64,000 bases of DNA from Gemmatales bacterium. Lineage in GTDB: Bacteria; Planctomycetota; Planctomycetia; Gemmatales; HRBIN36. Where the stretch lies: positions 722-64,721 of the forward strand of contig JANXCQ010000003.1 of assembly GCA_025060195.1 (NCBI GenBank), in the 5' to 3' direction. The notes beneath the pieces are model-generated. The model was not told the origin of the DNA, did not search any database, and saw only the letters and a program-made list of their open reading frames with translations. A program made the position numbers and the translations under genes. Below, piece after piece: positions 3,391 to 38,362 of the stretch (position 1 is its first letter; each line of letters opens with the position of its first letter).

Positions 3391-3397
3391 GGGGGGT

Positions 3398-5431
3398 TTA
3401 GGCGCTCTCGAGGGCTTTTTGCAGAGCAGCGCGGGGGTCGGAGTAGAAGATGGGGTCGATGCGTTCGACGATTTCGCTGGGCACGTCGGTGAATGCGCGT
3501 TTGTTTTCCAGGGGTAGCAAAGCGCGGCGTGCGCCGTTGTCCATGGCCACTTGGAGCGGTTCGATGAGCGAGCGTAAGGCTTTAATGGTACCTTGGATGC
3601 TCAGGTCGCCTAGCACTACCATGGCAGGTCGTACCGATTGGCGGCGCAGGGCTGAGTAAACGGCCACGACGAAGGCTACGCCGACTTCGCAGCTAGCGTG
3701 GTTCCCTAGCAGGTCAATGGCTTCGACCTGGAAATCGGTTGCGTCGAGTAGTTGGCGTATGCCGAGGAATTCCTTTTGCGTTTGCAGGTAGCTGAAGGCG
3801 CGGTCAATGGAATCCCGGAGTTTCCTGTCGGTTACGCCGACGTTGCGGAGTTTTCCGGTGCCTGCGGCACAGCCGACTTCGAGGCGGTAGAGTCCGACCT
3901 TGCCTTCGTCATCTACGGAAGCGGCATAGACCGAGCCCGGGGGTAGCGGGTCGCTGGAAATGGCCTGACAGCCGCCTTGTTCGGGAACGCCCACAAAGCG
4001 CTCCTCGCGAGTATCCTGGTCAATGAACGAGAACGAAGTTTGATGGTACTCGAAGGCGCCCATCTTTTTGAGTTGTTCTTTAACACGGCGTCGGCCTTCG
4101 AGGGCGAGTTCGAGGAGTTCCGCCAGTTCTTCTTTGGTGTATTCGCCGTGGGGATAGAGCAATTTGATCAGGCCGGAGACGGTTTTTCGCACTGCTTTGA
4201 CATCGCGTGCGTTGAGATGGCTGCCCAGGAGGAAGTAACGGTCAATGGCCTCGGTGTAGTTATGTTTGCGGAGTTCGCGTAGGGCCTCGGCCAGGTAGTC
4301 CACGACGAAGCCGTAGTGGTCGGTGAAGAATTCGACCCGCATTTTGGGAATTTCCCACCCGGGCAGGTAGAAGTGGATACGGTCGAGAAAGGCGAGGTCT
4401 TCGCGGATGACGTCGGGCATGGGCAGGAACAGGTGCGAGGTCCGTACCATGACTTCCACGGGCTGGTTGGTATTGCCGAACATGGCGATGGAGGCCATGC
4501 CTGTGAGCGAATCTTTGCCGCGGGCAAAGGTGCCGGATTCGCAGTAGGTTTTCAGAGTGGTGACGACCTCTTTGGGCATTTTTTGGAGGTCGGCGACTTC
4601 GTCGAAGGCGATGGCGTCCCAGATACCGACCAAGCCGATGCGGTTGGTGGCGATGTTATAAAACAGGTTGGCGACGGTGGTGGGGCCGGTGAGCAGGATG
4701 GCGTAGGGCGAGAGTTCCTGATAGGCGTAACTTTTGCCGGTGCCGCGTGGCCCGAGTTCGACCAGATTGTAGTTGCGTTCGCATAGGGGTATGAGGCGAA
4801 CGAGCAGGAGCATCTTGACCCGGCGGGAGAACTGGCTCGATTCCAGGCCCATGGTGCGGATCAGGAGGTCGAGCCATTCGTCGGTGGTGAAATGGCGGCG
4901 GTTTTGGCGGTATTCTTCGAGGTCGAAGGTGGCGATTTGGATCGGCTTGAGTTCATCAATCCAGAATGGGCTGCGTTTGGCCGGGCCGTGCGCTTCTGCG
5001 TCGTACTGATGGCGAAGTTCAATTTGGGCCCAGATGCCGCCTACCAGCAGCCGGTCGTATTTGCGGATGTAGTGGTCGGGAATGTGGACGTAGCGGTGGC
5101 CGAAGTTTTTCAGTTCCGCCCAGTATTTGTCGTCGTCGGAGACATAACGGACTTGGACTTTGTCAATGAAGGTGTGTCGGCCCTTGTCGCGGACGAGCGC
5201 CTGGGCTTTATTCGATTCGTCGGGCCGGACGTAGTGGGAGGCGAGGGTATTGTGCACGACGCGCATGCCTGCCTCGATAGCCACAGGGTCGTTCGTGGCG
5301 CAGTATTTTCCCAGTAGATATTCCAGCACGAACACGGGAACGTTGGCCCCGACTTTGACCTTGCGAACCAGGTCTTTGCGAACGACTTTACCGGGGAAGA
5401 CTTCGCTGACCTTTTGATCCAGTTCCGACAT
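3398..5431 (-). CDS. brxL: BREX Lon-like protease BrxL
   Basis: The intact 677-aa ORF begins MSELDQKVSEVFPGKVVRKDLVRKVKVGANVPVFVLEYLLGKYCA..., with an AAA-like core (ELGPRGTGKSY) and a Lon-protease-like C-terminus. It is the last gene of the BREX operon, starting 9 nt after the pglZ stop. Confidence 0.88.
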   Translation of the reverse strand: MSELDQKVSEVFPGKVVRKDLVRKVKVGANVPVFVLEYLLGKYCATNDPVAIEAGMRVVHNTLASHYVRPDESNKAQALVRDKGRHTFIDKVQVRYVSDDDKYWAELKNFGHRYVHIPDHYIRKYDRLLVGGIWAQIELRHQYDAEAHGPAKRSPFWIDELKPIQIATFDLEEYRQNRRHFTTDEWLDLLIRTMGLESSQFSRRVKMLLLVRLIPLCERNYNLVELGPRGTGKSYAYQELSPYAILLTGPTTVANLFYNIATNRIGLVGIWDAIAFDEVADLQKMPKEVVTTLKTYCESGTFARGKDSLTGMASIAMFGNTNQPVEVMVRTSHLFLPMPDVIREDLAFLDRIHFYLPGWEIPKMRVEFFTDHYGFVVDYLAEALRELRKHNYTEAIDRYFLLGSHLNARDVKAVRKTVSGLIKLLYPHGEYTKEELAELLELALEGRRRVKEQLKKMGAFEYHQTSFSFIDQDTREERFVGVPEQGGCQAISSDPLPPGSVYAASVDDEGKVGLYRLEVGCAAGTGKLRNVGVTDRKLRDSIDRAFSYLQTQKEFLGIRQLLDATDFQVEAIDLLGNHASCEVGVAFVVAVYSALRRQSVRPAMVVLGDLSIQGTIKALRSLIEPLQVAMDNGARRALLPLENKRAFTDVPSEIVERIDPIFYSDPRAALQKALESA

Positions 5432-5440
5432 GGCGGACTC

Positions 5441-6493
5441 CTAGATGGCAATGGCGACCTCGACGGTCAACGGGGTGGCCAGTTCCACGTGGGTGGCGCT
5501 ATCCACCAGGTGGATCGTGGCCGTGGGTTGGTTGATGTCTTCTTCGAGCATCAGGGCGATGGTGTTGGGTTCAACTTGTTGCGGATCGGCGTCGGAGAAT
5601 TTCAGGTGGACGTCGCCTGTCGCGTCGTCGAAGCCATACGAAGCGCTCACTGGTCGGGACACTACTTTTCGACCGGCGCGGATTTCGACGCGCACCTGGG
5701 GGAGTTCGGCGCCGAAGAGGCTGGATTCGGTCGCCTGGCCGGAAACGCGGACGGAGAAGAACCGCGTGGTGATCTTGGCGGCGCCGGGGGTAAGTGTCCA
5801 GGCCATGGGGCAGAATCGCGGACGTGGCTTTGCCTTGGCCGTTACTGTCAGTACCGGGATGATCATTTCCTGGGGCGAGACCCCGCCGTGGAAGTAAGCC
5901 CGATTGCCGCTTTTACAGCGAAACACGGCAAAGCCTTTGGGCGTGGCGAATTCCAGGTCGGTTTCCAGGCCGAAGCTCTGTAACGGTACGCGCCACGAGG
6001 ACGGTGCCGAAGTGCCGGCGGAACCGAGCCAAAGGCGCCGCCGCAAGTTGACCGTGGAGCCTGCGGGAGGCTCGATTTTCATGGGCTCGGTGGTTTCGTC
6101 GGCGAAAAGGTAACCGTGGTCGGCGGTGAGGATGATGATGGTGAATCCGTGCTCGACCAGGATACGGACGACGCGCCGCAGCTGAGCCAGCAAGGCGTTC
6201 ATATGCAGACGGGCTTGGGCGATGTTATCGGTTTCGCCCAGTTCGTCAATTTCCTGCGAGGTAACTACCAGGAGCGTTGCCTGGGCCAGGTCTTGTTCCC
6301 GGCGTTTATTCGGTTTGGGCAACAGTTGTTCCAATTTACAATCCCGCACGTTGCAGGACACGCGTTCGCGGATATACTGGAGACGGTCTTTACGGTCTGC
6401 GATGACTCGTGCGCCGATTTTCACGCCAAGGCGACCGTCCTTGAGCGCGACCAACCCCAGGGATTGGTGCGCTTCGGGCAGCAAGGCGGCCAT
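5441..6493 (-). CDS. pglZ: PglZ, C-terminal fragment (PglZ/alkaline-phosphatase-like domain remainder), separated from the N-terminal fragment by an in-frame TAA
   Basis: It starts MAALLPEAHQSLG... and contains LTADHGYLF (the DHG metal-ligand motif). It is in the same frame as ORF 6500-8032, since both end coordinates are 1 mod 3. Confidence 0.85.
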   Translation of the reverse strand: MAALLPEAHQSLGLVALKDGRLGVKIGARVIADRKDRLQYIRERVSCNVRDCKLEQLLPKPNKRREQDLAQATLLVVTSQEIDELGETDNIAQARLHMNALLAQLRRVVRILVEHGFTIIILTADHGYLFADETTEPMKIEPPAGSTVNLRRRLWLGSAGTSAPSSWRVPLQSFGLETDLEFATPKGFAVFRCKSGNRAYFHGGVSPQEMIIPVLTVTAKAKPRPRFCPMAWTLTPGAAKITTRFFSVRVSGQATESSLFGAELPQVRVEIRAGRKVVSRPVSASYGFDDATGDVHLKFSDADPQQVEPNTIALMLEEDINQPTATIHLVDSATHVELATPLTVEVAIAI

Positions 6494-6499
6494 ACCGAC

Positions 6500-8032
6500 T
6501 TAGGTGACCGTGGGCACGGTGGCCAAGGCGGGACGCAGTTCGACTTGGAAATCGTTTTCGAGCAAGCGGGCCAGTTCCCGTCCCATCTCGAACCGCAGGG
6601 CATCCACCCAGACGTAAGCGACTTTCTGGCCGCTTTGCAGGTGGGGTTTGACGACTTTTTCGAAAATTTCGCGTTGCTGGAGCAACGCCTTGGCGGGGAA
6701 TCTGGTCTTGTGGAGCAGGTCGAAGAACAGTTCGGCCAGCTTGGTGCCGACGGTTTCATACTCCTGGCGGGCCCGCGTGGTCAGTTTGTGCAGTTGGTCG
6801 TAGTCGTCCTCGGCGGTAAACTCGAGGTTATGGCGGCGTTGTTCGAGGTGGCGGTGACAGGTATCGAGGAGGCACCAGGGTTGGTCGGAGGCGGCGTAGG
6901 CGTGCACCAGTTCGGCGAGGCTGGACGGCGGCGATTGGAGTTGTTGGCGGATGTGGTCGGCGCAGAGAAGTAGTTCGGCGGCCACGGCTACCAACGCCCA
7001 ATACGCCTGGAGGGTCGGTTCCACTTCGGCCCAGAAACGCGAAAGCCGCCGCTGCGCTAACTCCAGCAGCTCGCGCCGCGGGCCTTCGAGCAGTTGTTGT
7101 TCGGCGTATTGGAGCAGGACTTTGTCCAGCACGGGGAAGGTTTCCAAGTGCTGACAGGCAAGCGCGGGCAGGGGGAGCCGGTGCAGTTGATACTGTTGTT
7201 CGACCTGGCGGGCCCAGGCGCTATAGCTGTCGCGATATTCCCGTTGATTCCGCCAGGCCTGGGCCAAGCGCAGACAGGCATCCCGGGCCAGCGGATTCTG
7301 GGCCACGGGCACGGAAGCTAACGTGGACGGCCAACTCTCCTTCAGACCGTGATACAGTTCGCTGAGCAACACATGGCGCGCGAAGTGTTCCCGTAACATG
7401 GTCAGCGAGACGCCGTCGCGCACCGACAGTTGGAATCGTTCGCCCAGCATCTCGCGCAGTGGTTGGACAAGTCGTTTTTCCTCGAGAGCGGCGTCGTATT
7501 TGTCGCTGGCGACGAAACGCAGGGCGACTTCCTCGGCGTCGTCGCTGCCGAAGACCGACTTGAGCAAGGCGGAGAGCGGTTTGTGGGGTGCAGCCAGGGC
7601 GTCCAGGAAAGCCAGGTCGAGTTGCTGCTGGTCGAGGCGTTCGAGCACCGCGGCCAGGTCTTTGTCGGGGAGCATGCCTTGCAACACCCGCCGGGCGAGC
7701 ACGCTGGGGCGCGTGTTGTGGGTCAGCGACGGATGCCCCGGACGCAACACGGTGCCCGCGGCTTCCAACTCAACCAGGGCATGGTGCGTATCGGCCGGGT
7801 CGCACGGTACGTACACCAGCAAGCGGGGCGGTTGTTCGTCGTTGAGCAAGGGGTCCACTTCGTAGCGCAGTTGGAAAAAGCTGTTGTTGCAGGTTACGAT
7901 CTTGGCGTCGGGCAGCGTTAGCTGGTCAACTACGGGACGATAGAACCCCTGGGGGTCGTACCAGACGACGATCCCATGCTTGTCGAGCAGTTCGGCGAGC
8001 AACTTGGTGACGTAGTCGCTGACGGCACCCAT
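6500..8032 (-). CDS. pglZ: PglZ, N-terminal fragment, ending at an in-frame TAA (6500-6502)
   Basis: It begins MGAVSDYVTKLLAELLDKHGIVVWYDPQGFY... and ends ...VAYVWVDALRFEMGRELARLL...ATVPTVT*. Reading across the stop gives TVPTVT*VGMAALLP, the conserved PxxT..GMAALLP segment of PglZ. Confidence 0.85.
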   Translation of the reverse strand: MGAVSDYVTKLLAELLDKHGIVVWYDPQGFYRPVVDQLTLPDAKIVTCNNSFFQLRYEVDPLLNDEQPPRLLVYVPCDPADTHHALVELEAAGTVLRPGHPSLTHNTRPSVLARRVLQGMLPDKDLAAVLERLDQQQLDLAFLDALAAPHKPLSALLKSVFGSDDAEEVALRFVASDKYDAALEEKRLVQPLREMLGERFQLSVRDGVSLTMLREHFARHVLLSELYHGLKESWPSTLASVPVAQNPLARDACLRLAQAWRNQREYRDSYSAWARQVEQQYQLHRLPLPALACQHLETFPVLDKVLLQYAEQQLLEGPRRELLELAQRRLSRFWAEVEPTLQAYWALVAVAAELLLCADHIRQQLQSPPSSLAELVHAYAASDQPWCLLDTCHRHLEQRRHNLEFTAEDDYDQLHKLTTRARQEYETVGTKLAELFFDLLHKTRFPAKALLQQREIFEKVVKPHLQSGQKVAYVWVDALRFEMGRELARLLENDFQVELRPALATVPTVT

Positions 8033-8069
8033 GGCTGGCTACCTGATGCGGGGCCTGGCGGTGCGCCGA

Positions 8070-11000
8070 TTACGGCGTGGCGCGGACCAGGCCTTTTTGC
8101 CGCAATTGCTGGGCGATGGACGACCACGGATACTTCCCCGCGAGCAATTCGTCCCAATATTTTTTGGCTTCCTTCCAAGGGACGAGTTCCCACAAATGGG
8201 CGATGGTGAGCACGACGCCGTCATCGCGGTCGGGGCGCAGCTGCAAGCGGGCGGCACGCTGCAATTTGTCGGCGAAGTCGCGCAGTTCGCTGAGCAAGTC
8301 TTGCTGGCGTTCCAGGTCGCGGTCCAGCCGCTTACTGACGTTGCCCGCGGCCTGGGCCTTTTGTTGTTGCAAGGCGGCGAGGCGATTTTCCTCCCGGCGG
8401 ATTTTCGGTTCGACGTAATGCAGCCTCGCTTTAAACAGCAGGTCCTCGTCGAGCTGGTGATAGTAAAGCCACAGGGCGAAGTTCCCTTTAGAAGATTGTA
8501 GCAGCCAGTAAATCGGGGCTTTGCGTCGGCTTTTGGAATAGCGGGCGAGGTGGTCGTGCCAGAAACCGCCCGGGCCGGCGCGACGGAAATATTCCCGCAG
8601 GTCGCGCACGCCCAGGGCGCGGCAGGCTTCCTGTTCGACCTGTTCGGCGGCGTCGCCCCAGAGCAGGTCAAAGACGTCGCGGACGCGGCGGACGATGTCG
8701 TCGGTATGTTCGGGGTCGTCCACCAGGATGCCGTTCCACTGAATGGCCAGCGGATAGCCGGGCGGTGTTTCGCTCAACGGCAGACCGTCTTCTCCCTGGA
8801 GCATCCCCGGCGGACACACCGGCAGCGGGTCAAACGGATCGGGCAACGGCGGCGCTGCTTTCTCCCCCGTCGCATACCGCACATCCCACCGCCCAAACAC
8901 ACACCCCACCGCGTAAGAGATAACTTCCCGTGCTCGTTTTGCCCGATCGTCTAGCTGTTTCTCGTCGCTCGCATCGCCATTATCATCATCAAACCAGCCT
9001 TGATTATGCACGGCGACAGTTATGGACAAAGCTTCCAATTGAGCTCGCTCTTGCTCGTTCAAGCCGTAGGCTTCGTAAATAATGTCGTCAATCAGTTGGG
9101 ACGGCTTACTCGGGGGCTCAGGACGAGTTTGGTAGGAGGTAAACTCGTGTGCAGTCTCGTCGTAGTTTTTGTATAGTGCGAACTTATAACACTTTTGAGC
9201 CTCCGCAACGAGAATACTCGAATACTTTCGAAGATCTGGGTAGGGGACGATTCCCAATACTCCAACTTCATAAGATTTGGCGATCATGGAAGTGCCAACA
9301 ATTAAGTCCACTAAGCAGCTAAAAGCGGATGAATTCATGAACGCTAAGGCAAGCCATAAATCCGTCTCGTTGGTGGCAAAACCGCCGCTGCCTTTGACCG
9401 AAATTATCGCTCCCGCATTGAGCACTCTCGGCCCGAACCTTTTCGAGGTGCGTTCACTCCATGTCAATCCTGGGCGAAAGTAGTAATCGGTGTTTCGAAG
9501 GCATGAATAGGGGCGTCCCGTCTCGGGGTCTCTGAAATTCCTAATTTCCTCCCCGTCGCGTTCCCAATTGATGACGAGGTGTAAGTCGGCGTAAAAGGGA
9601 CTATACTCGCCGCCCTTGGCGAAGGGCACCCAGCGTTTGCCTTCGAAGGTGCGCTGGCGGCACCATTGTTGAAAGGCCTTGAGGTCGCGGCGCCAATCGG
9701 GACCGTGGCGGGCATCGAGGATCTTCTGCGGGTCCACTTCCCACCAACAGCGAACGAAGCGAAAATCGTCGGCGGTTTGGAGCCCGACGCGCACGGTGCG
9801 GCCTTCGCTCTGGAACGGGGGCAGTTCGCGGAACAAGCGACGAATCCGCTCGGAGACCCAATAGGCGAACGGGCTGCCCGGGACCAGGCGAAATTGCTCA
9901 GGCGCCACCGGGAAGACGTCGGGGTGAGGCTGGTCGGCGAGGTAAGCGGCCCGGGCCTGGGCCAACGCCTCCGCTTTGTTCTCATGGTGCAACATGCGGA
10001 AAAACACGGTCGGCGCCGCGGACGGTGCGGCGGACGGAGTCGCTTTGGCCAAACAGTAGGCGGCAGTTTCGACCATGGCGGTGTCGAGCACGCCATAGCC
10101 CAGGTCGGCCACCACCAGGAGCCGCGCTTCCCGTAATAAAACTTCTTCCCGCCATTTCTGGAAACTGGAGAGGAAAAATCCAGTGCGGCTGGTCAGGGCG
10201 CCCAGCAGTCCGTCCGGGAGCAGACGCCGTAACGCCATTTCCACAAACGCCGCATACAGGTTATGTTTACTCCGCGGATAAGCCCGTTCCAGATAGGCCT
10301 TGAGCGCTATGGGATAGTCGCCATAGGGCGGATTCATCAGGATGACGTCGTAGCGCTGGTGGCACAATTCGACGAAAGCCAGTCCCTGGGCGGTATCCTC
10401 GGCAAAGAGCCGGCGCTGCAGACCGCGTCCGTTATCGGCCCGCTGAGCATGGGCGCGTAAGGCGGCGACGACGCGCTGCTCGGCTTGTTCAAAGAACTGG
10501 GCATCGGACAAAGCGCTCACGGCAAAGAGCCGCGGCGGCTCGGAATCCGGGGCGTCGAACATCGTCCGCTGCCACGCCCCGCCCCCCGCGAGGAATTGCC
10601 GATGCGCTTCCTGGACGGCGTCGCGGAGGTCGTCCTCGATGAGTAACAGCGGCCCCGCTTCTCCGGCCAGTTGCATCTTGTCGAACACCACTTCGACCAA
10701 CTGGCCCAACAGCTGCGGCTCCAGGCTGGCCACGAACTCGCGGAGCAACTGGCGCTCGCCCGGCATCGGTTCGGCACATACGAGATGGGAACGGGTAATC
10801 TTGGGCCGCTCGCCACTTAGGCCGAATTGCCGATACGCCCGCTGACACCGCAGCCATAACGCCAACGCCGCCACCTGAATCGCCCGCGGATCGATATCCA
10901 GGCCGTAAAGATTCTCCGCCAGGATGAGCCGGGGCAGGTCGCGATACAGCGCCGACTTGTCGGGATAGTCGCGGCGAAGAGCGGGGCCCAGGTCGGGGTC

Positions 11001-11654: not shown

Positions 11655-11979
11655 AGACCTGGTGGACTTCCATCATCTTGTAGGCACATAAGCGGTTCAG
11701 GTGGGTGAAAGCGACTTCGCGGACGAGTTGTTCCAGGGCGTCGGCGGGAGCGAAACCGCGGGCTTGGGCATGTGCGAGGTAATCGAGCAAATCGCGGCGG
11801 GCCTGCAGTTCCTGCGGCGTCAGATGCTTGAGCCGGGCCTCCGGTTCGATATGCAGGCGGCGCGCCCGTTCCAGACGAATGCCAAAGCGGCCCTCCAGTT
11901 CCTCGCGCAGGGCCGGTTCGAGGATGCGGCGACATTGGGAGACGGCGAGCCGCAGCTGATTCCGCGTCGCCTGGTCCAT
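11365..11979 (-). CDS. pglX: PglX (paralogue 2), N-terminal fragment upstream of a frameshift; only about 11979-11575 is family-like
   Basis: The fragment reads MDQATRNQLRLAVSQCRRILEPALREELEGRFGI...VREVAFTHLNRLCAYKMMEV...EGFQLYLAEHPE. It parallels the N-terminus of paralogue 1 (...RETAFTWLNRLVAFKMLEA...NGYLLWLADH). After about 11575 the frame yields Ala/Arg/Gly-rich nonsense. Frame 0 mod 3 here versus 2 mod 3 for the main fragment. Confidence 0.8.
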   Translation of the reverse strand: MDQATRNQLRLAVSQCRRILEPALREELEGRFGIRLERARRLHIEPEARLKHLTPQELQARRDLLDYLAHAQARGFAPADALEQLVREVAFTHLNRLCAYKMMEVHQVYVGGQRFREAVSRGVYSEGFQLYLAEHPEAHRAVLCGPARTRLPPFPRLAGAAAGGRDRRALQSARSGQSAVSAAAGSRPGARLSQRPRLGRRLAP

Positions 11980-11982
11980 AGC

Positions 11983-14187: not shown

Positions 14188-14256
14188 CGACCAGCCCTGA
14201 TCCTGCGGGTCGAGGCTGAGCCGTTCCCGAATCTGATCCAGGTCGTGCCGACGTTC

Positions 14257-15666
14257 CTACGAAAGGTTGTCTTCGACCAGGTCGTACACCTTGTCGAGCG
14301 TGACCAGCGCGCCGATGGGCTTTTGGGCGTAGTTGGTGCGTTCGTGCACGAGCATTTCGTAGGTTTGTTTGATGATGGTGCGGTTACTGCCGCCCAGGTG
14401 CCGCGATTCGCCCAACTGTTGCCGCAATCCCGACATGATGCTGATGCACAGATCAATGTAATGCGGTGGATAGGGATAAAAGTGGGCGAACTCATCGGCG
14501 CTGAGATGGGTGTGCCGCGTGGTGCGTTCCAGGCTCAGCGCCTCATGGAGCACGCCTTCATGCTGGCGGAACAGCTCGCGCAACAGATGCTCCCCCTCGG
14601 GTTTCTTGGCCAGCACTCGTTTCGACGCCACTTCGCGAATGTCCGAAGGCGGCAAGTCCACGCGGATGCTGAAGCGGTCTTGCAACTTGGCCAATTCGAC
14701 CCGCCGCGCATCTAACGACGACACCACCTCGTCGAGCTTCTCCTGCGAGGTCACGATGATCCAGCACGGGGCGGGAATTTTGCCTTGTTTGACGAGATTT
14801 CTGCCCACCCGGCCAAACTCTTCAACGGTGGCGCGGAGGTCTTCGATTCTCTCCTCGCTGGTGGCGACGTGTTGGCCCACTTCGTCAATGATGAACACCA
14901 AAGCCTGTCCGGGGCGGCGCCGGCCCCATAACTCAAAAGTCCGTTGCACGATCTTACTGACCGAAAGCGGTTCGCGGCGTTGGCCGTGGACTTGGGCCCA
15001 GGAATCGGCCGTGGGGTACGTTTTCGGATCGAGCCGATGCAGGATGCTGCTGGTGCGGGCCAGGCGTTGCGCCCCTTTGCGGACGCGGCGCCACGGTTGC
15101 TGGTGCAACTCCAGACACAGCTGCTCCAACTCGGCCAGGCGACCTTCCGCTTCCAGTTCGATTTCCAGTTCGGCGAGGTCGAAATCCTCGGCGTAATCGA
15201 GTTCGCGGAGCAACACACGGTACATGATTTCCGCGATGCGTTGCGTCGCCAGGCGGGTGTCGCGTTCCTTGGCCACGTCGAAGAAGATCACCCCCGTACG
15301 CCACCGGGCATGGATATTATCCAACAGGTCGGCCAGTTCCGGGTCGTCCATGCGCTCTTTGAACCACTCGGCAAAGGGGCGCCCGCGGATGCGGGGATTG
15401 TGCAGAGCGTAGCCGAGATTCTTGACGAACGAGCTTTTGCCCGAGCCGAAGAAGCCCGAAACCCACACGCCGATCCCTTCGCGCAGTTCGCTCGGCGCCT
15501 CGGCCATGGCCCCGAGCAATTGCCGATAGTGCGCTCGGATACTCGGCGTGGCCACATACTCCATGATTTCCTGATAGACCGACTCCTCATCGGCCTGATC
15601 CACTTGGATGATTTCCTGGATTTTGCGAGACAGGTCGCGGGCGATGATTTCGCCGATGGTCTTCAT
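14257..15666 (-). CDS. brxC: BrxC (PglY-like P-loop ATPase), N-terminal fragment, ending at an in-frame TAG (14257-14259)
   Basis: The true start is the ATG at 15666 (MKTIGEIIARDLSRKIQEIIQVDQADEESVYQEIMEYVATPSIRAHY...). Walker A is GFFGSGKSSF. Its ATG overlaps the TGA of the upstream gene (ATGA at 15663-15666). The 721-aa ORF-track entry 14257..16422 is an artefactual upstream extension. Confidence 0.85.
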   Translation of the reverse strand: MKTIGEIIARDLSRKIQEIIQVDQADEESVYQEIMEYVATPSIRAHYRQLLGAMAEAPSELREGIGVWVSGFFGSGKSSFVKNLGYALHNPRIRGRPFAEWFKERMDDPELADLLDNIHARWRTGVIFFDVAKERDTRLATQRIAEIMYRVLLRELDYAEDFDLAELEIELEAEGRLAELEQLCLELHQQPWRRVRKGAQRLARTSSILHRLDPKTYPTADSWAQVHGQRREPLSVSKIVQRTFELWGRRRPGQALVFIIDEVGQHVATSEERIEDLRATVEEFGRVGRNLVKQGKIPAPCWIIVTSQEKLDEVVSSLDARRVELAKLQDRFSIRVDLPPSDIREVASKRVLAKKPEGEHLLRELFRQHEGVLHEALSLERTTRHTHLSADEFAHFYPYPPHYIDLCISIMSGLRQQLGESRHLGGSNRTIIKQTYEMLVHERTNYAQKPIGALVTLDKVYDLVEDNLS

Positions 15667-16646
15667 GCGGACAACCCCCGATGCAGTTGCCGACTCAGGC
15701 TCGACCATGAATAGTGTCCCTGGAGCAGTTGCTGCCAATATTTTTTGGCGTCGGGGAAGGGCACCAGTTCCCACAGCGGTGCCAGGTTCAGCGCCACGCC
15801 GTCGTTGATATCCGGCACCAGGCGCAGTTCCGCGACGCGCCGCAGCTTCTGCTGAAAGTCGCGCAGTTCTTCGAGGCGTTCCAGTTGGTTTTCGATGTCC
15901 TGGGCGAGTCGTTTGGCTTCGCGGGGCAGTCGGGAGCGGCTCTCGCGGGGCGGCAGCGTTGTGGTGCTGCCAGCGCTGGCGCTGCCGGCGTGCGACGCCT
16001 GCCACGCCGCAAAACGGGCCCGCAGTTCGGCCAAGCGCTTTTCTTCCCAGCGGCACCGCGGTTCCACCACCTTGTGCAGCACCTTGAAGAGCGTGTCCTG
16101 GTCGTAGCGTCGGGCAAAGAGCCACACGCCGAAGTTTTTCCGCCCCGACAGCAGCAACCAGTAGATCGGGCGCTTGCGATATTGCGACAGAGGGCGTTTG
16201 AAAAACGGCAGGGCCAGGTCGTCGGCCAGACGGTCGAGCACCGGACCCGGGCCACACGCCTCCGTGACTATAACTTCCGCCGCGGCTTCGCCGTGACGCC
16301 CTTCCAGGACGCGCCACACCGCTTCGGCCAGGGGACGACCCGCTTCGCAAAAGGCTTCCGCTTCCAGGACGCGGCCGACGGCCCAACTGAGCCACGCCTG
16401 GGCCAAACGCGTCCGGGTCCACGCCGCGGGAGGCGCCTCCGCTTCCTCGCTCGGTTCGTCCTCGGGCTCGGCGTCGTCATCGGCCGCGGGACGCGCCGCT
16501 AATTCCGCCTCGATGGCCCGACGGTCGCTCTCCGAGATGCCGTAGAGCCGATACACTTCCTCGTCGATTTCCCATTCGATTTCCGCCAACTGGCGATGGC
16601 GCTCGGCCACACGCTCCACGCCGTCAGGCCAAGCCGGCGGTTCCAC
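15663..16646 (-). CDS. PglX-like methyltransferase (paralogue 1, pglX'), C-terminal fragment after an in-frame TAG
   Basis: The fragment contains ...EWEIDEEVYRLYGISESDRRAIEAEL...PIYWLLLSGRKNFGVWLFARRYDQDTLFKVLHKVVEP...INDGVALNLAPLWELVPFPDAKKYW. This matches the PglX paralogue 2 C-terminus block for block. It shares the frame (2 mod 3) with 16680-17114 and 17163-19448. Confidence 0.85.
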   Translation of the reverse strand: MEPPAWPDGVERVAERHRQLAEIEWEIDEEVYRLYGISESDRRAIEAELAARPAADDDAEPEDEPSEEAEAPPAAWTRTRLAQAWLSWAVGRVLEAEAFCEAGRPLAEAVWRVLEGRHGEAAAEVIVTEACGPGPVLDRLADDLALPFFKRPLSQYRKRPIYWLLLSGRKNFGVWLFARRYDQDTLFKVLHKVVEPRCRWEEKRLAELRARFAAWQASHAGSASAGSTTTLPPRESRSRLPREAKRLAQDIENQLERLEELRDFQQKLRRVAELRLVPDINDGVALNLAPLWELVPFPDAKKYWQQLLQGHYSWSSLSRQLHRGLSA

Positions 16647-16679
16647 GAAATCCCACGTCGTTTCGTCCTCCCGACTATC

Positions 16680-17114
16680 CTACTTCGCTAACTCAATCGC
16701 TTGCTCCACCAAACGCTCCAGCTTCTCGCTCGACTGCTGCGGTATCGGCAACCGCGATAGATCCCCGACTTGAGTATTTACTGTCGGATTAACCAAGGTG
16801 ATCAGGTGATAGAACATACTGCTATTCATGACACCAAGTATTTGTGGAACATTGTCGGCAAATAGCCCTGCAGTTGCGTCGGCAAAAATAAAGCCCTCGG
16901 GCATCAGTCTAGCACTGAATCGGCTCGAGCTGACCTTGGGACACGTGATGCCGCGGCGGAAGTAGTGTTCCGTGTTCCTAACTACCCATTCCCACTTTCC
17001 GTCTAGGTATGAATAACGTTCGCAAACATAAGCTTTGATTTCGGCGCCGTCGTTTTCCCAATTCACGACATATTCCTGATTGCCATACCATCGGCGAAAC
17101 CTGCCACCTTTCAT
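16680..17114 (-). CDS. PglX-like methyltransferase (paralogue 1), middle fragment between an in-frame TGA and an in-frame TAG
   Basis: MKGGRFRRWYGNQEYVVNWENDGAEIKAY...NTEHYFRRGITC... aligns with paralogue 2 FAKGGEYSPFYADLHLVINWERDGEEIRNF...NTDYYFRPGLTW. It ends at the TAG at 16680-16682. Confidence 0.85.
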   Translation of the reverse strand: MKGGRFRRWYGNQEYVVNWENDGAEIKAYVCERYSYLDGKWEWVVRNTEHYFRRGITCPKVSSSRFSARLMPEGFIFADATAGLFADNVPQILGVMNSSMFYHLITLVNPTVNTQVGDLSRLPIPQQSSEKLERLVEQAIELAK

Positions 17115-17162
17115 GTAGGGGAACCAGCGTTTTTTCGACTGTTTGGCTTCCTCGGCGTTTTT

Positions 17163-19448
17163 TCAGTCGAAGGCGATCCGCTCTTTGCCCACCTCCCACC
17201 AGAATCGGACGAAGCGGAAGTTATCTGCCGTGGTTAACCCCGGCCGCACTGCGGCCACGTCGCCGAGTTTGGGTAAGGTCTGGAACAGGCGCCGCAGGCC
17301 GGGCGTGATCCAATACACCCAAGGACTGCCGGGAATGGCGTCGAAGTCGGCTTGACGATAACGGAACACGGCGGGGTCTAGGGCGCTGGCCTCGCTCGTG
17401 GGCGGAGCGCTGGCGCCGCTCGTAGCGGCTTGGAACGCCTGACGTAACGCGGCGAGGGCCCGTTCCAGGCGCTGGCGTTTGCTTGGCGCATCGGGTTCCT
17501 TGACCAGTCGAAAATACGTCGCGACCGCCTCGGCCCGCCGCCGCTCATCGCTCTCCTTCCGCAGCACGAGCAACGCCGTATTCACCTTCGCGCCCGCGAT
17601 TTCCTCAAACGCTTCCGTTCCGAGATGGGCTAAGGTTTCGATCACGTGTTCTTGCAGCAATTGCTGCCGCAGCCGTTCGTAACTGGAAATGAACATGAAC
17701 GATTGTTGCGTCACCATGCCGAGCCGACCGCCATCTGAGAGTAGTTGCGAACCGCGGAGCAGAAAAGCCGCATAAATGTCCGTCTTTCCCTCGGGGTAAT
17801 GTTTGGCTAAGAGGTCTTTGATCACGGGGTCGAGATTCCACGCTGTGCTATAGGGCGGATTGGTAACGACCACGTCGTAGGTCTGATCTAACAGTTGGAG
17901 CAAGCGCAGGCCTTGGACGGTCTCGCCGGCAAAGAAAGTCTGGGGGATGCCCCGTGCGTCCTGGTCGCGGGCCAATTGGTCGAGGGCGTGGCGAATCTGG
18001 GCCAGGAGCGTGTCCCAAAAGTGACGCCGCGCCGCTTCCGAGCCGAATTGTTCCCGACTCCAGCCGAATAAATCGGGGTTGCGACCCGCGCGCTCGTAGC
18101 GTTGGCGTTCTTCCTCGACCAGGGCGCGAATCCGCCGCTCCAACGGCAGCAACGAGCCCAAATACTGCGACCGCTGAAGTTCTTCCTGCAACGCGGTGAG
18201 AATCCTTTGGTAGATGGGCCGCTCGCCCAGTCCTGCCTGACGCAGGAACGTGGCTAACCGCTCGCCGTCGAGCATGTGCACGTTGGCGCAGGCTAACCGC
18301 GATTCGCGGAGCGTCCGCCCGGGAGCCAGCGTCTTGGCCTTGAGATAAAGCGCCAAAGCGGCGATCTGCACCGCCCGCAGGTCAATATCAATGCCGTGAA
18401 GATTTTGCTCCAGAATCGCCGCGGGGATGTCCTCGGGATGGTCCACCGGAGGCTGCGCCGGCCAGCCCGGTTGACCCGCCCGCGCCATTTCTTCCTGGTA
18501 CATCTCCACAAACAGGTCGAACGCCACTAACCCGAAATGCATGGTACCGCACGCGGGATCGAGTAATTTGATTTCCCGCACGCTGCGAATCGGCCGTTTC
18601 AATTCCGCAGGGGTGAGCGCCTCGGGAAGCAGATAGTCCAACTTGGAGCGCAAATTGGAATCGGGATGAAGTTGGAGCCATAAGCGACCCAACGTGTTGT
18701 GCACCAGGAAACGCACCATCCACCGCGGCGTGAAAATCTGCGTGGCCGCGGGTAAATCCTCGGCGGAGATTTTGCGTTTGTGCTTGTAAAGTTGCTCAAA
18801 GATGTGGGCCTTCTCCTCTTCGACGAAAAACTGATAGACCCAGCCGAGGGTTTCCTCATTGCCGGGCTGCCAGGCTTCGGCGAGTTGGGGTTGGTTGAGG
18901 GCGTGGGCCACCTCGCGGAGCACGGCCAAGGGGGGTGCGAAGCGGGAAGCCAGATTATCCGGGTCAAACAACACGCGAATCTCCCGAGCGAGCTGACGGC
19001 AGCAGTCGAGGAGGAAACGTAAGTAAGCAGCGTCGCGCGATTCGCCCCCGCGTTGATGCTGGAGCCAGGCGTCGCGATGGTCGGCCAGCCACAGCAGATA
19101 CCCGTTGGAGTGATCCCAGCGGGAAATGGTTTCGCGGAGCCAGCGCCGGGCCTCGAGCATCTTGAACGCGACCAGGCGGTTGAGCCAGGTGAAGGCCGTC
19201 TCCCGCAGAAATTGCCGATACGCCTGCCGCGGGGTCAGGCCGCAACGCTGCAGGTCGTCGAAATGCTTGAGCAAGGCAGCGCGTAAGGAGCGACCTTCGT
19301 CGTCGAGATGCCGCAGCGGGGCGTTGGGATCGGCCACCAGTTGGCCCGACTTTTCGTAGAGGTCGTACTGGCCTTCCAGAAGCTCCGCGACGGCGCGTTC
19401 CAACCGGGCGCGGGCGTCGAGTGCCAGTCGGCGAAGCAGTTGCCGCAC
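17163..19448 (-). CDS. PglX-like N6-adenine methyltransferase (paralogue 1), N-terminal and catalytic fragment, ending at an in-frame TGA (17163-17165)
   Basis: The fragment carries WVYQFFVEEE, IFTPRWMVRFLVHNTLGRLW, the SAM motif KLLDPACGTMHFGLVAF and catalytic DVVVTNPPYS, and ends ...ADNFRFVRFWWEVGKERIAFD*. The start is uncertain. I propose the GTG at 19448, the first start codon after the brxB stop at 19466, aligned with the paralogue 2 N-terminus. The ORF-track extension to 19928 overlaps brxB and is not credible. Confidence 0.82.
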   Translation of the reverse strand: MRQLLRRLALDARARLERAVAELLEGQYDLYEKSGQLVADPNAPLRHLDDEGRSLRAALLKHFDDLQRCGLTPRQAYRQFLRETAFTWLNRLVAFKMLEARRWLRETISRWDHSNGYLLWLADHRDAWLQHQRGGESRDAAYLRFLLDCCRQLAREIRVLFDPDNLASRFAPPLAVLREVAHALNQPQLAEAWQPGNEETLGWVYQFFVEEEKAHIFEQLYKHKRKISAEDLPAATQIFTPRWMVRFLVHNTLGRLWLQLHPDSNLRSKLDYLLPEALTPAELKRPIRSVREIKLLDPACGTMHFGLVAFDLFVEMYQEEMARAGQPGWPAQPPVDHPEDIPAAILEQNLHGIDIDLRAVQIAALALYLKAKTLAPGRTLRESRLACANVHMLDGERLATFLRQAGLGERPIYQRILTALQEELQRSQYLGSLLPLERRIRALVEEERQRYERAGRNPDLFGWSREQFGSEAARRHFWDTLLAQIRHALDQLARDQDARGIPQTFFAGETVQGLRLLQLLDQTYDVVVTNPPYSTAWNLDPVIKDLLAKHYPEGKTDIYAAFLLRGSQLLSDGGRLGMVTQQSFMFISSYERLRQQLLQEHVIETLAHLGTEAFEEIAGAKVNTALLVLRKESDERRRAEAVATYFRLVKEPDAPSKRQRLERALAALRQAFQAATSGASAPPTSEASALDPAVFRYRQADFDAIPGSPWVYWITPGLRRLFQTLPKLGDVAAVRPGLTTADNFRFVRFWWEVGKERIAFD

Positions 19449-19465
19449 TTGCGCGTCCCTGAGCG

Positions 19466-20053
19466 TTACCCGTAGATTTTCACGCGATAATTGCCCCAGG
19501 CCAGGCGGTCTTTCAGGTTCATGAGGCGCAGTCCAAAAGTGCCTTCGCGGGAACCGGGGTAGAACAAGACGGTGGGCACCTGCGTGCGGCCGTGGAGTTC
19601 GTCGAGCAACTTCGACACGGGATACAGCCCGGGCGCCAACGCCGCGACGCGGGTCAGAAACACAATGTCGCGGGCAGGATGCAGACCACTGTAGTGGCTG
19701 AGCACTAAGTCGGCCAACGGACACCAATCGCGATCCGAGAGATAACAGGTCACCTGCTCCTGGGCTGGGAGAAAGCCCCATTGGCGTTCCAATTGCACCA
19801 GGGCATCGAGTCCCTCGGACTGGGCGATGGCCTGCCAGAGCAAATCGGACATCCGCACCACGTGCACGGTTTTCTGCGCCGCTTCCAGGCGCGTCTGGAG
19901 CAACCGGAGTTCGCGCCGCAGCTGCCATTCCTCGCTCGGATCGTAGCGCAGAATGGCAAAGGGGAGATCGTGACAGACAGCAATCCGCGGAGGCACCGCT
20001 TTCAGGTCATCTTCCAGGAGCTTGAGCCGCTCGCTCAACGAGGACATGGGCAT
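19466..20053 (-). CDS. brxB: BREX protein BrxB (DUF1788 family)
   Basis: The intact 195-aa ORF has ...PFAILRYDPSEEWQLRRELRLL...VLFYPGSREGTFGLRLMNL...GNYRVKIYG, the typical size and C-terminal YPG...NYR signature of DUF1788. It is the second gene of the operon. Confidence 0.8.
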   Translation of the reverse strand: MPMSSLSERLKLLEDDLKAVPPRIAVCHDLPFAILRYDPSEEWQLRRELRLLQTRLEAAQKTVHVVRMSDLLWQAIAQSEGLDALVQLERQWGFLPAQEQVTCYLSDRDWCPLADLVLSHYSGLHPARDIVFLTRVAALAPGLYPVSKLLDELHGRTQVPTVLFYPGSREGTFGLRLMNLKDRLAWGNYRVKIYG

Positions 20054-20843
20054 ATTCCTCCAGGCTCGTCGCGGGGAACGTCAGACGCACGACACTGCCC
20101 GCGGCGTAATATTCGAGATAGCCTTCCTGATGGGCGGCAAAGAAGGCCCGTTCCACCGCATCGGGCGTCAGGAAAAACAGTTGCCAATCGGGCCGCCGTA
20201 CCAGCTGCGCCACAGCGCGATGCCGCTGGTGCAGGTAATAGGCGATGTAGGCAAAAGCCGCCAAAGGTAAATACGCCGGTTGCAGCCGTTTCTTGTTCAC
20301 CCCCTGCAGTATGCCGAAATCGCGGAGCGCCGCTAACAGTCCTTGGGCGACGCGGCGCAACGTGTATTCCGACCAGGGCCGCACCATTCGCCCCTGAGCG
20401 ACCCAGGCACGCAGCGGGCCAAGCAAATCACCCACGCTCACCTCGACCAGGCCGCATTGCGCCTGCGGTAACAGCACATGACGCACCACGTCGGCGACTA
20501 AGGGGTCGGCCTGAGCGGTGTGGAAAAACAAAATGCGGTCGAGCGCCGTCGCGGGGAGCCTCCCTTGCACCAGGATCACCAGAGCCGGCAAGACCGACGG
20601 TTCGACCAAATAGCGTTGGCGAAACACGCTCAGGATGTGCCGCAGCCGTGCCCGCGACGATTTGCCCAGCCAGTTTTGCCGCAGCACGCATTCCAGATTG
20701 GCTTGCGGACTTCGCGTCTTGTCCCAGTGCAACAGGATCGCTTTGGTCTCGGCGAGCAAGGAGCCGGCCTTGATGATTTTGCACGAATACGGCCTTTGGG
20801 CATCCTCGTGGGCGCGACGGCGCCGAGAGACTCGTGGCGGCAT
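20007..20843 (-). CDS. brxA: BREX protein BrxA (DUF1819 family)
   Basis: I chose the ATG at 20843 (MPPRVSRRRRAHEDAQRPYSCKIIKAGSLLAETKAILLHWD...), with GGAGG about 15 nt upstream. The DUF1819-like pattern includes ...PWSEYTLRRVAQGLLAALRDFGIL.... The gene overlaps brxB by 47 nt. The longer ORF-track version (to 21125) is an upstream extension. Confidence 0.72.
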   Translation of the reverse strand: MPPRVSRRRRAHEDAQRPYSCKIIKAGSLLAETKAILLHWDKTRSPQANLECVLRQNWLGKSSRARLRHILSVFRQRYLVEPSVLPALVILVQGRLPATALDRILFFHTAQADPLVADVVRHVLLPQAQCGLVEVSVGDLLGPLRAWVAQGRMVRPWSEYTLRRVAQGLLAALRDFGILQGVNKKRLQPAYLPLAAFAYIAYYLHQRHRAVAQLVRRPDWQLFFLTPDAVERAFFAAHQEGYLEYYAAGSVVRLTFPATSLEEYAHVLVERAAQAPGR

Positions 20844-38234: not shown

Positions 38235-38362
38235 CACGCCGATATTTTGCTTCTGCATGCACCATTTCACTTACCGAACCGATGCATAGGATTACTTAGA
38301 CGAGAACCAATAAGCCGACAACGCCCTTGTCGGTTCCTTATTTAGCAAGGAGCTCTCAAGCC

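What the first reader, a model, noticed from the sequence alone, without database searches (positions are those of the whole stretch)
3398..20843. BREX type-1-like operon with two divergent PglX methyltransferase paralogues (brxA-brxB-pglX'-brxC-pglX-pglZ-brxL)
The sequence shows all six type-1 BREX hallmark families in canonical order on the minus strand. In addition, an extra PglX-like gene of about 1260 codons (15663-19448) sits between brxB and brxC.

The extra gene is integrated into the operon. Its TGA overlaps the brxC ATG (ATGA at 15663-15666), and it begins about 17 nt after the brxB stop.

Both paralogues keep a SAM-binding motif (LDPACGTMHF versus LDPACGSGHF) and a catalytic NPPY motif (TNPPYS versus MNPPYG). 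They also share PglX-specific N-terminal blocks (AFTWLNRLVAFKMLE versus AFTHLNRLCAYKMME) and C-terminal blocks (PIYWLL..., ...LWELVP...KKYW).

In the stretches I aligned by eye, roughly half the residues match. This was not computed, but it argues against a recent tandem duplication.

Established knowledge describes type 1 BREX as brxA-brxB-brxC-pglX-pglZ-brxL with a single pglX that sets the modification motif. I infer that a two-methyltransferase BREX could mark or discriminate two motifs, or that one paralogue could have become a non-catalytic specificity subunit. I do not know of this arrangement as a described subtype.
Basis: partly seen in the sequence, partly recalled or inferred. Interest (0 to 1): 0.8.

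Follow-up and report, generated by a model that had tools for sequence, protein, structure and literature searches.

The report
Decayed BREX operon with two methyltransferases
This is a type 1 BREX phage-defence operon carrying two very different copies of its DNA-marking enzyme PglX, a layout that recurs intact in other bacteria but has not been described, and in this genome the operon is dead (four premature stop codons and one frameshift).

Summary
On the minus strand lie brxA, brxB, pglX-1, brxC, pglX-2, pglZ and brxL, and profile searches assign every gene to its BREX family. Both PglX genes pass NCBI's curated BREX-1 PglX cut-off (801 and 754 bits; cut-off 500).

The two copies are 32% identical (BLAST) and belong to two deep PglX lineages. 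Each lineage is the only PglX in many canonical loci, so this is not a recent duplication or an embedded type IIG enzyme.

- pglX-1 has in-frame TGA and TAG.
- brxC has an in-frame TAG.
- pglZ has an in-frame TAA.
- pglX-2 has a 1-nt frameshift.

All four stops fall where homologues carry an amino acid. Independent assemblies of two sequencing runs reproduce the lesions they cover; the pglZ site lies outside them.

The layout is not unique. I found it with all visible genes uninterrupted in one metagenome contig and six species-representative genomes, mostly Chloroflexota. Other two-PglX layouts also exist. Both copies keep the SAM-binding and NPPY/F motifs, and they diverge in parallel, which suggests stable co-inheritance.

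Inferred mechanism: two specificity and methylation subunits share one BrxABC/PglZ/BrxL scaffold and mark two motifs. The two-methyltransferase type V BREX of Haloarcula hispanica is the experimental precedent. Verdict: a new variant of a known kind, of moderate interest.

The parts
20007..20843 (-). brxA (278 codons, intact)
   Evidence: PADLOC BrxA PDLC02445, 132 bits. Same boundaries as the gene called in the public record.
19466..20053 (-). brxB (193-195 codons, intact; overlaps the end of brxA)
   Evidence: PADLOC BrxB PDLC02459, 100 bits.
15663..19448 (-). pglX-1, the extra PglX between brxB and brxC. It belongs to the 'DPACGTMHF / NPPY' lineage. It is a pseudogene with an in-frame TGA at 17163-17165 and an in-frame TAG at 16680-16682. 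Its stop overlaps the brxC start (ATGA).
   Evidence: NCBIfam NF033452 BREX-1 PglX, 800.9 bits (cut-off 500). PADLOC PglX, 649 bits. The TGA replaces a Cys and the TAG mostly a Gln in the 12 homologues aligned. The public record calls three fragments of 761, 144 and 327 aa.
11983..15666 (-). brxC (1227 codons). Pseudogene with an in-frame TAG at 14257-14259.
   Evidence: PADLOC BrxC PDLC02476, 716 bits over the full length. Homologues have Ser, Asn or Thr at the stop position. The public record calls two fragments.
8070..11979 (-). pglX-2, the PglX in the canonical position between brxC and pglZ. It belongs to the 'DPACGSGHF' lineage. It is a pseudogene: a 1-nt insertion near 11551 separates the N-terminal ORF 11365-11979 from ORF 8070-11654.
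   Evidence: NCBIfam NF033452, 753.5 bits. Frames shown. The public record calls fragments of 204 and 1137 aa.
5441..8032 (-). pglZ (863 codons). Pseudogene with an in-frame TAA at 6500-6502.
   Evidence: PADLOC PglZ PDLC02559, 362 bits. 59 of 94 homologues have Glu at the stop position.
3398..5431 (-). brxL (677 codons, intact)
   Evidence: PADLOC BrxL PDLC02506, 957 bits, full length. 76-79% identical to BrxL of other loci.

Best explanation
The region is a chromosomal type 1 BREX operon of a variant architecture, brxA-brxB-pglX1-brxC-pglX2-pglZ-brxL. It carries two full-length PglX methyltransferase and specificity subunits from two anciently separated PglX lineages.

In intact relatives the most likely mechanism is that each PglX assembles with the single shared set of BrxB, BrxC and PglZ (and BrxL for exclusion). 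Each recognises its own non-palindromic motif through its own target-recognition domain. Host DNA is then marked at two motifs, and incoming DNA must carry both marks to escape.

In this Gemmatales genome the operon is inactivated and decaying. Both pglX copies, brxC and pglZ carry disabling mutations.

Shown:
- gene identities, order and junctions
- the lesions and their reproducibility
- recurrence of the layout, intact, in other genomes
- conservation of the catalytic motifs in both lineages

Inferred:
- that both enzymes are active
- that they use different motifs
- that they share one scaffold
For: Family assignment. Both PglX copies score above the curated BREX-1 PglX cut-off. Their nearest solved relatives are Salmonella PglX (8C45) and E. 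coli BrxX (9EWZ).

Two lineages: the copies are 32% identical and fall in two deep clades of a neighbour-joining tree of 117 PglX sequences. Each lineage is the only PglX in canonical A-B-C-X-Z-L loci. For lineage 1 see L002 and L160-L162. For lineage 2 see most of 80 metagenome loci.

Shared scaffold: the window's BrxC, PglZ and BrxL are about equally similar to those of loci that use either lineage.

Recurrence, intact: the layout A-B-X1-C-X2 occurs in L001 and in L014, L015, L029, L032, L040 and L042, with uninterrupted reading frames as far as each contig reaches.

Catalytic motifs: motifs I and IV are conserved in both copies of nearly all of these loci. The motif I pattern was not matched in the X2 genes of L015 and L042.

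Co-inheritance: the two copies diverge in parallel among the two-PglX loci (X1 52-60% identity, N-terminal half of X2 57-65%).

Integration: pglX1 overlaps the brxC start as ATGA, and L001 has a 1-nt overlap at the same junction.

Decay here:
- Four stops fall where homologues carry an amino acid, and there is a 1-nt frameshift.
- X1 and X2 deviate at 38 and 55 columns that are otherwise invariant, against 5-30 and 3-20 for homologues.
- The lesions in pglX1, brxC and pglX2 are also present in Logan assemblies of SRR15826899 and SRR15826900.

Precedent: the Haloarcula hispanica type V BREX has two methyltransferases that modify GTAYCCG and GACCCC independently, and both are needed for defence.
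Against: - There is no methylome or expression data, so activity and motif specificity of either enzyme are untested.
- This copy cannot be assayed without repair.
- The survey is biased. Loci were retrieved through two peptide patterns per query and capped at 80 per scan, so the frequencies are not population estimates.
- The neighbour-joining tree has no support values.
- Loci with pglX between brxB and brxC but no second pglX exist (L046, L067). The extra position therefore does not always mean two enzymes.
- L001 and L162 share neighbourhood and scaffold (88-95% identity) but differ in PglX content. PglX genes are therefore exchanged fairly freely, which also fits a turnover model.
Confidence: 0.72

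Rival explanations
1. The two-PglX state is a transient intermediate of PglX replacement. A newly acquired pglX module coexists briefly with the old one before one is lost, so there is no selected two-motif function.
For: L001 (two PglX) and L162 (one PglX) sit in the same chromosomal neighbourhood with 88-95% identical BrxA, BrxB, BrxC and PglZ but different PglX content. Loci of the form A-B-X1-C-Z-L, lacking the second copy, exist (L046, L067). Scaffold proteins pair with either lineage. In the window both copies are dying.
Against: The same layout is intact in at least seven divergent loci. In the Chloroflexota group both X1 and the N-terminal half of X2 form matching clusters with parallel divergence of 52-65% identity. 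That implies long co-inheritance rather than a brief overlap.
Confidence: 0.15
2. One paralogue has become a non-catalytic specificity or regulatory subunit. This was the first reader's alternative, and it resembles what has been suggested for the second methyltransferase of Lacticaseibacillus paracasei Zhang.
For: In L. paracasei Zhang, 6mA is lost only when pglX is inactivated, and the second methyltransferase is thought to be regulatory (PMC10164179). Lineage 1 has Met in place of the second Gly of the GxG SAM loop (DPACGTMHF).
Against: DPACGTMHF and NPPY are invariant in lineage 1, including members that are the only PglX of canonical loci (L002, L003, L160-L162). Lineage 2 keeps DPACGSGHF and NPPF/Y. 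Motifs I and IV are retained in both copies of nearly all two-PglX loci.
Confidence: 0.07
3. The extra gene is an unrelated type IIG/IIL restriction-modification enzyme (MmeI-like) that landed inside the BREX operon, as other defence genes do.
For: PADLOC's type IIG model PDLC03600 scores 587 bits on it, close to the best PglX model at 649 bits. Unrelated defence genes embedded in BREX loci are known, for example brxU and nucS.
Against: It scores 801 bits on the curated BREX-1 PglX model (cut-off 500), and that alignment starts at model position 1 and protein residue 5. There is therefore no room for an added N-terminal nuclease domain. Its closest full-length relatives (60-67% identity) are the PglX of BREX-1 loci.
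Confidence: 0.02
4. The in-frame stops are not lesions. They could be sequencing or assembly errors, or recoded codons (selenocysteine at TGA, or a reassigned stop), in which case the operon is functional.
For: The TGA in pglX-1 replaces a Cys that is invariant in the homologues aligned. The window encodes SelB and SelA at 43024-46455.
Against: Three different stop codons are involved, and all three also end ordinary genes in the window. The 74 nt from the TGA onward fold no better than shuffled sequence (z = +0.5). A frameshift is also present. The lesions recur in two independent run assemblies at 99.95-99.97% identity. Substitutions at conserved columns are in excess.
Confidence: 0.02
5. 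It is a phase-variable pglX shufflon: a second, usually partial pglX copy plus a recombinase and inverted repeats that swap specificity domains, as reported for some type 1 loci.
For: From my own recollection, duplicated pglX next to a recombinase was noted in the original BREX survey (Goldfarb et al. 2015). That paper is not held here.
Against: Both copies are full length, on the same strand and separated by brxC. There is no recombinase in the operon. The only DNA-level matches between the copies are short direct repeats at conserved motifs (89 nt at 71% identity, 35 nt at 94%), and there are no inverted repeats between them.
Confidence: 0.01

Closest known systems
Canonical type 1 BREX (brxA-brxB-brxC-pglX-pglZ-brxL; E. 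coli HS, Salmonella, Acinetobacter, Bacillus cereus)
   Same: All six families are present on one strand with tight or overlapping junctions. BrxL is 76-79% identical to BrxL of ordinary loci. Both PglX copies match the curated BREX-1 PglX model.
   Different: There are two PglX genes instead of one. The additional one sits between brxB and brxC. In this genome four of the seven genes are disrupted.
Haloarcula hispanica type V BREX with BrxX1 and BrxX2 (bioRxiv 10.64898/2026.04.28.721311)
   Same: One BREX locus carries two full-length methyltransferases. In that system each modifies its own motif independently and both are needed for full defence. This is the best functional model for intact relatives of this locus.
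   Different: That system is archaeal and has two BrxC proteins, BrxHII instead of BrxL, and the layout ...brxC2-nucS-brxX1-brxZ-brxX2. Its two enzymes are 53% identical and make m4C. Here there is one brxC, brxL is present, the two PglX copies are 32% identical, and they belong to the N6-adenine BREX-1 family.
Lacticaseibacillus casei/paracasei Zhang type 1 BREX with a 'second methyltransferase' (PMC10164179; Hui et al. 2022, cited there)
   Same: It is a type 1 BREX cassette annotated with two methyltransferase genes.
   Different: There, only pglX is responsible for 6mA and the second gene is thought to be regulatory. Here both copies are full-length PglX with intact catalytic motifs (apart from the lesions). 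They come from lineages that each act alone elsewhere, and they are separated by brxC.
Type I restriction-modification systems with several specificity (hsdS) genes; type IIL enzymes such as MmeI
   Same: The logic of one machinery serving several specificity modules applies. The PglX fold and target-recognition domain are related to MmeI-type enzymes.
   Different: In PglX the target-recognition domain is part of the methyltransferase itself, so the whole 1260-1300-residue enzyme is duplicated. There is no nuclease domain, because the N-terminus aligns to the PglX model from position 1.

Membership tests
BREX type 1 | All six families (BrxA, BrxB, BrxC, PglX, PglZ, BrxL) are present in one cluster | tested here: met
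   PADLOC HMM hits for every gene, E-values from 3e-29 to 0.
BREX type 1 | Canonical gene order with a single pglX between brxC and pglZ | tested here: not met
   There are two pglX genes: one between brxB and brxC (15663-19448) and one between brxC and pglZ (8070-11979).
BREX type 1 | Intact reading frames, so that the system can function | tested here: not met
   In-frame stops in pglX-1 (two), brxC and pglZ, and a frameshift in pglX-2. The lesions in pglX-1, brxC and pglX-2 were reproduced in independent assemblies.
BREX type 1 | Site-specific N6-adenine methylation of a non-palindromic motif and phage exclusion | not testable with these tools
   This needs a methylome and phage assays.
BREX-1 PglX (NCBIfam NF033452) | Score above the curated cut-off of 500 bits | tested here: met
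   pglX-1 scores 800.9 bits and pglX-2 scores 753.5 bits. The BREX-5, BREX-6 and BREX-2 PglX models all score below their own cut-offs.
BREX-1 PglX (NCBIfam NF033452) | SAM-binding motif I and catalytic motif IV (NPPY/F) | tested here: met
   DPACGTMHF and NPPY in pglX-1; DPACGSGHF and NPPY in pglX-2. Both motifs are conserved in both lineages across nearly all two-PglX loci; the motif I pattern was not matched in the X2 genes of L015 and L042.
Type IIG/IIL restriction-modification enzyme (MmeI-like) | N-terminal PD-(D/E)xK nuclease domain fused to the methyltransferase | tested here: not met
   The PglX model aligns from model position 1 at protein residue 5. Residues 74 onward align to the same residues of E. 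coli BrxX, so no extra N-terminal domain is present. The nuclease motif itself was not searched for.
Phase-variable pglX shufflon | A recombinase gene and inverted repeats between the pglX copies | tested here: not met
   No inverted repeats between the copies. No additional gene lies within the operon.
BREX type 5 (two-methyltransferase H. hispanica type) | Two brxC/pglY genes and the helicase brxHII in place of brxL | tested here: not met
   There is one brxC and a full-length brxL. The BREX-5 PglX model scores 288-306 bits against a cut-off of 900.

The most novel reading that the evidence does not exclude
brxA-brxB-pglX1-brxC-pglX2-pglZ-brxL could be a distinct, stably inherited sub-type of type 1 BREX. 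It would be spread mainly in Chloroflexota and also in Planctomycetota and other phyla. In it, two PglX lineages would be obligate partners on one scaffold, for example by marking two motifs with both marks required for 'self'. In many members the second PglX is itself split into a methyltransferase half and a recognition half. This would be a modular, multi-specificity BREX that the current classification does not name.
Probability: 0.3. Interest if true: 0.6.

Novelty: new variant of a known kind. Interest (0 to 1): 0.42.

Why it matters
BREX specificity is thought to be set by one PglX per system. A recurrent architecture with two PglX enzymes on one scaffold would mean that type 1 BREX can multiplex recognition motifs. 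That would raise the barrier to phage escape by site loss or by acquiring a single methylation.

It also offers natural material for studying how PglX docks onto BrxB, BrxC and PglZ, because two proteins only 32% identical would have to fit the same partners. The evidence that pglX modules move between otherwise conserved scaffolds bears on how BREX specificity evolves.

This particular copy is an example of a defence system being lost by point mutations. It is of no direct experimental use unless repaired. The intact L001-type or Chloroflexota loci would be the ones to clone.

Tried and rejected
- **Stop-codon reassignment.** Rejected. The four internal stops are TGA, TAG, TAG and TAA, and all three codons also end normal genes.
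- **More broken genes elsewhere in the window.** Two other same-frame ORF pairs (38300-41362 and 43024-46455) looked like broken genes. They are simply adjacent genes: the two subunits of a 2-oxoacid:ferredoxin oxidoreductase, and SelB and SelA.
- **Selenocysteine at the TGA that replaces a conserved Cys.** There is no hairpin downstream.
- **Assembly error.** Rejected, because two independent run assemblies carry the same lesions.
- **Shufflon or inverted repeats.** None found.
- **Phase-variable tract at the frameshift.** The insertion lies in CGCGCTG, not in a homopolymer.
- **Literature.** Goldfarb et al. 2015 could not be retrieved by DOI or by PMC id. The large 2026 BREX survey (PMC12839542) has no text on two PglX genes in type 1, and its supplementary neighbourhood file is not held as usable text.
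- **Plasmid search.** It gave only distant hits of about 30% identity or less. It did show an annotated haloarchaeal plasmid with two pglX genes in yet another layout.
- **Rfam search of the repeat array downstream of brxL.** No match.


Full report
**1. What is in the sequence**

Between 3398 and 20843 the minus strand carries seven collinear genes. PADLOC profile HMMs assign them as follows:

| Gene | Coordinates | Score (bits) |
|---|---|---|
| brxA | 20007-20843 | 132 |
| brxB | 19466-20053 | 100 |
| PglX-like gene | 15663-19448 | 649 |
| brxC | 11983-15666 | 716 |
| second PglX | 8070-11979 | 1168 |
| pglZ | 5441-8032 | 362 |
| brxL | 3398-5431 | 957 |

The stop of the extra gene overlaps the brxC start as ATGA at 15663-15666. 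Its GTG start lies 17 nt after the brxB stop. The flanks are housekeeping genes: ribosomal protein S2 on one side, and a Lar_N-domain gene plus ExbB and ExbD on the other. The operon is therefore chromosomal.

The window is 100% identical to contig JAVQSM010000001.1 of a Gemmatales (Planctomycetota) metagenome-assembled genome, GCA_033581835.1.

**2. The locus is broken**

- The extra PglX frame contains an in-frame TGA (17163-17165) and an in-frame TAG (16680-16682).
- brxC contains an in-frame TAG (14257-14259).
- pglZ contains an in-frame TAA (6500-6502).
- The PglX in the canonical position is frameshifted. Its first 204 codons (11365-11979) are in a different frame from the rest (8070-11654). 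A single inserted base in the context CGCGCTG near 11551 accounts for this.

The stops are not a recoding signal. Three different stop codons are involved, and all three end ordinary genes in the window. Each stop replaces a residue found in homologues:

| Lesion | Residue in homologues |
|---|---|
| pglX-1 TGA | Cys, invariant in the 12 aligned |
| pglX-1 TAG | mostly Gln |
| brxC TAG | Ser, Asn or Thr |
| pglZ TAA | Glu in 59 of 94 |

I considered selenocysteine because the TGA replaces Cys and the window encodes SelB and SelA. The RNA downstream of the TGA folds no better than shuffled sequence (z = +0.5).

The lesions in pglX-1, brxC and pglX-2 are not assembler artefacts. Logan assemblies of two sequencing runs (SRR15826899 and SRR15826900) are 99.95-99.97% identical to the window, and their gene calls show the same fragments. 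Those loci stop short of the pglZ site, so that lesion is not independently confirmed.

Both PglX copies also show an excess of substitutions at columns that are invariant in their relatives. The counts are 38 and 55, against 5-30 and 3-20 for the homologues. This fits relaxed selection.

brxA, brxB and brxL are still open. Two other same-frame ORF pairs in the window that looked like broken genes are just neighbouring genes.

**3. What the two PglX genes are**

Both pass NCBI's curated BREX-1 PglX model NF033452, with 800.9 and 753.5 bits against a cut-off of 500. Both fail the BREX-2, BREX-5 and BREX-6 PglX models. The alignment starts at model position 1, so there is no extra N-terminal nuclease domain of the type IIL kind. 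The nearest solved structures to pglX-1 are Salmonella PglX (8C45) and E. coli BrxX (9EWZ).

The two copies are 32% identical by BLASTP over their full length (E = 2e-161), or 39% of gap-free columns in a global alignment. By region, identity runs from 33% (methyltransferase domain) to 46% (C-terminal domain).

In a neighbour-joining tree of 117 PglX sequences they fall in two deep clades (no support values).

- **Lineage 1**, the extra copy, has DPACGTMHF and NPPY.
- **Lineage 2**, the copy in the canonical position, has DPACGSGHF and usually NPPF.

Each lineage is the sole PglX of many canonical brxA-brxB-brxC-pglX-pglZ-brxL loci. For lineage 1 the examples are L002 (60% identical) and L160-L162 (63-65%). 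For lineage 2 the examples are nearly all of 80 metagenome loci. So this is not a recent duplication, and neither lineage is inherently an accessory one.

**4. The layout recurs elsewhere and is intact there**

The closest full-length relative of the extra copy is P0001, at 67% identity. It lies in a metagenome contig (L001) with the order brxA-brxB-pglX1-brxC-(small gene)-pglX2-(toxin-antitoxin pair)-pglZ. All visible genes are open, and the pglX1 and brxC genes overlap by 1 nt.

I scanned one genome per GTDB species with a lineage-1 profile and obtained 77 loci. I mapped gene order with tblastn using the window's proteins.

- In 41 loci the PglX follows brxC.
- In 19 loci it lies between brxB and brxC.
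- The region beyond brxC is visible in 8 of those 19.
  - Six carry a second, lineage-2 PglX after brxC: L014, L015, L029, L032, L040 and L042, mostly Chloroflexota.
  - Two go straight to pglZ-brxL: L046 and L067.
- Other loci with PglX after brxB come from Binatia, Aminicenantes, Sedimenticola and Ktedonobacteria.

They are not frequencies.

Other two-PglX layouts also exist:
- brxC-pglX2-pglX1-pglZ (L119 and L120).
- Tandem lineage-2 pairs that are 48-61% identical (L086 and L136).
- An annotated haloarchaeal plasmid with pglX-brxE-brxA-brxB-brxC-pglX.

In the Chloroflexota loci the second PglX is split into an N-terminal (methyltransferase) ORF and a C-terminal (recognition) ORF. The split falls at about the same point in each, but the junctions differ. 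This matches PADLOC's separate half-length PglX models, PDLC02526 and PDLC02532.

**5. Evidence bearing on mechanism**

- Motifs I and IV are retained in both copies of nearly all two-PglX loci. The pattern search missed motif I in the second PglX of L015 and L042.
- Scaffold proteins of the window are about equally close to those of loci using either lineage: BrxC about 51%, PglZ 48-51%, BrxL 76-79%. Both PglX types evidently work with the same kind of scaffold.
- Within the Chloroflexota group, lineage-1 copies and the N-terminal halves of lineage-2 copies form matching clusters. Their divergence is parallel, at 52-60% and 57-65% identity. The recognition halves are more variable, and their best hits are often PglX of single-PglX loci. 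This pattern points to long co-inheritance of the pair with diversifying recognition domains. It argues against a fleeting replacement intermediate.
- On the other side, L001 and L162 share their chromosomal neighbourhood and scaffolds that are 88-95% identical, yet L162 has one lineage-1 PglX in the canonical position. PglX modules are therefore gained, moved and lost on a short time scale as well.

I infer that each PglX forms its own BrxB-BrxC-PglX-PglZ complex and marks its own motif, so two motifs define 'self'. The requirement for a BrxBCXZ complex comes from work on E. coli BREX (PMC11842806). Independent action of two methyltransferases in one BREX locus has been shown for the type V system of Haloarcula hispanica.

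**6. Comparison with what is known**

The locus meets the compositional definition of type 1 BREX. It fails the single-pglX gene-order feature, and in this genome it fails functional integrity.

It is not the type V system, because it has one brxC and has brxL. It is not the recombinase-driven pglX shufflon, because there is no recombinase and there are no inverted repeats.

Two-methyltransferase BREX is known in H. hispanica (type V) and in L. paracasei Zhang, where the second enzyme does not methylate. I found no description of pglX between brxB and brxC, or of paired PglX lineages in type 1, in the searchable literature. That includes a 2026 survey of about 21,500 assemblies. Goldfarb et al. 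2015 is not held, so an earlier mention cannot be excluded.

**7. Verdict**

- **Observation:** real, but the genes are pseudogenes.
- **Interpretation:** partly supported.
- **Novelty:** a new variant of a known kind. The architecture is recurrent and apparently unnamed, and there is a functional precedent in another BREX type.
- **Interest:** moderate. It lies mostly in the intact relatives rather than in this decayed copy.

Noticed in passing
window 3111-3402: A tandem array of about 3.5-4 copies of a 75-nt unit (GTAACTTGTCGTAGGCAGGCGGTGCGCGGAGG...GACGTACTTATG) lies immediately downstream of the brxL stop, on the intergenic side towards rpsB. It has no Rfam match.
   Followed up: partly
window 43024-46455 and 38300-41362: SelB and SelA (selenocysteine machinery) are adjacent and in the same frame. 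So are the two subunits of a 2-oxoacid:ferredoxin oxidoreductase. At first both pairs looked like genes interrupted by stops, but they are separate genes.
   Followed up: partly
L015 18381-22557; L040 19166-23701; L032 10711-14050; L014 17588-22556: In the Chloroflexota two-PglX loci the second PglX is encoded as two ORFs: an N-terminal methyltransferase half and a C-terminal recognition half. The split point is similar in each locus but the junctions differ, so this looks like a natural split-PglX form rather than decay.
   Followed up: partly
L001 versus L162: Two metagenome contigs share the same upstream genes (HTH regulator, metallo-beta-lactamase, TfoX_N) and have 88-95% identical BrxA, BrxB, BrxC and PglZ. 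One has pglX1 before brxC plus pglX2, and the other has a single pglX1 after brxC (71% identical to the first). This is evidence that pglX is exchanged as a module on a conserved scaffold.
   Followed up: partly
L001 17378-17755 and 21800-22422; L160-L162; L015 17675-18502: Small accessory genes are embedded next to pglX in related BREX loci. They include PhdYeFM/PIN and DUF433/DUF5615 toxin-antitoxin pairs, a 23S_rRNA_IVP four-helix protein, a PDDEXK_3 protein and a RiboL-PSP HEPN protein. The window locus has none.
   Followed up: no
window 17163, 14257, 6500, 16680: The codons most likely to have preceded the four nonsense mutations imply C-to-A (TGC to TGA; TCG to TAG), G-to-T (GAA to TAA) and C-to-T (CAG to TAG) changes. 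Three of the four are the G:C to T:A type typical of oxidative damage. The sample is far too small to draw a conclusion.
   Followed up: no
L166 (Halobaculum halobium plasmid NZ_CP126160.1, record 77598-95319): This annotated RefSeq locus has the order pglX-brxE-brxA-brxB-brxC-pglX-...-pglZ. It is another two-PglX BREX layout, with one copy upstream of the whole operon.
   Followed up: no
L053 2909-8140; L054 6622-12731: The lineage-1 PglX after brxB is interrupted by 1.4-2.3 kb of unmatched DNA in two Chloroflexota contigs. This may be an insertion element or intron inside pglX.
   Followed up: no
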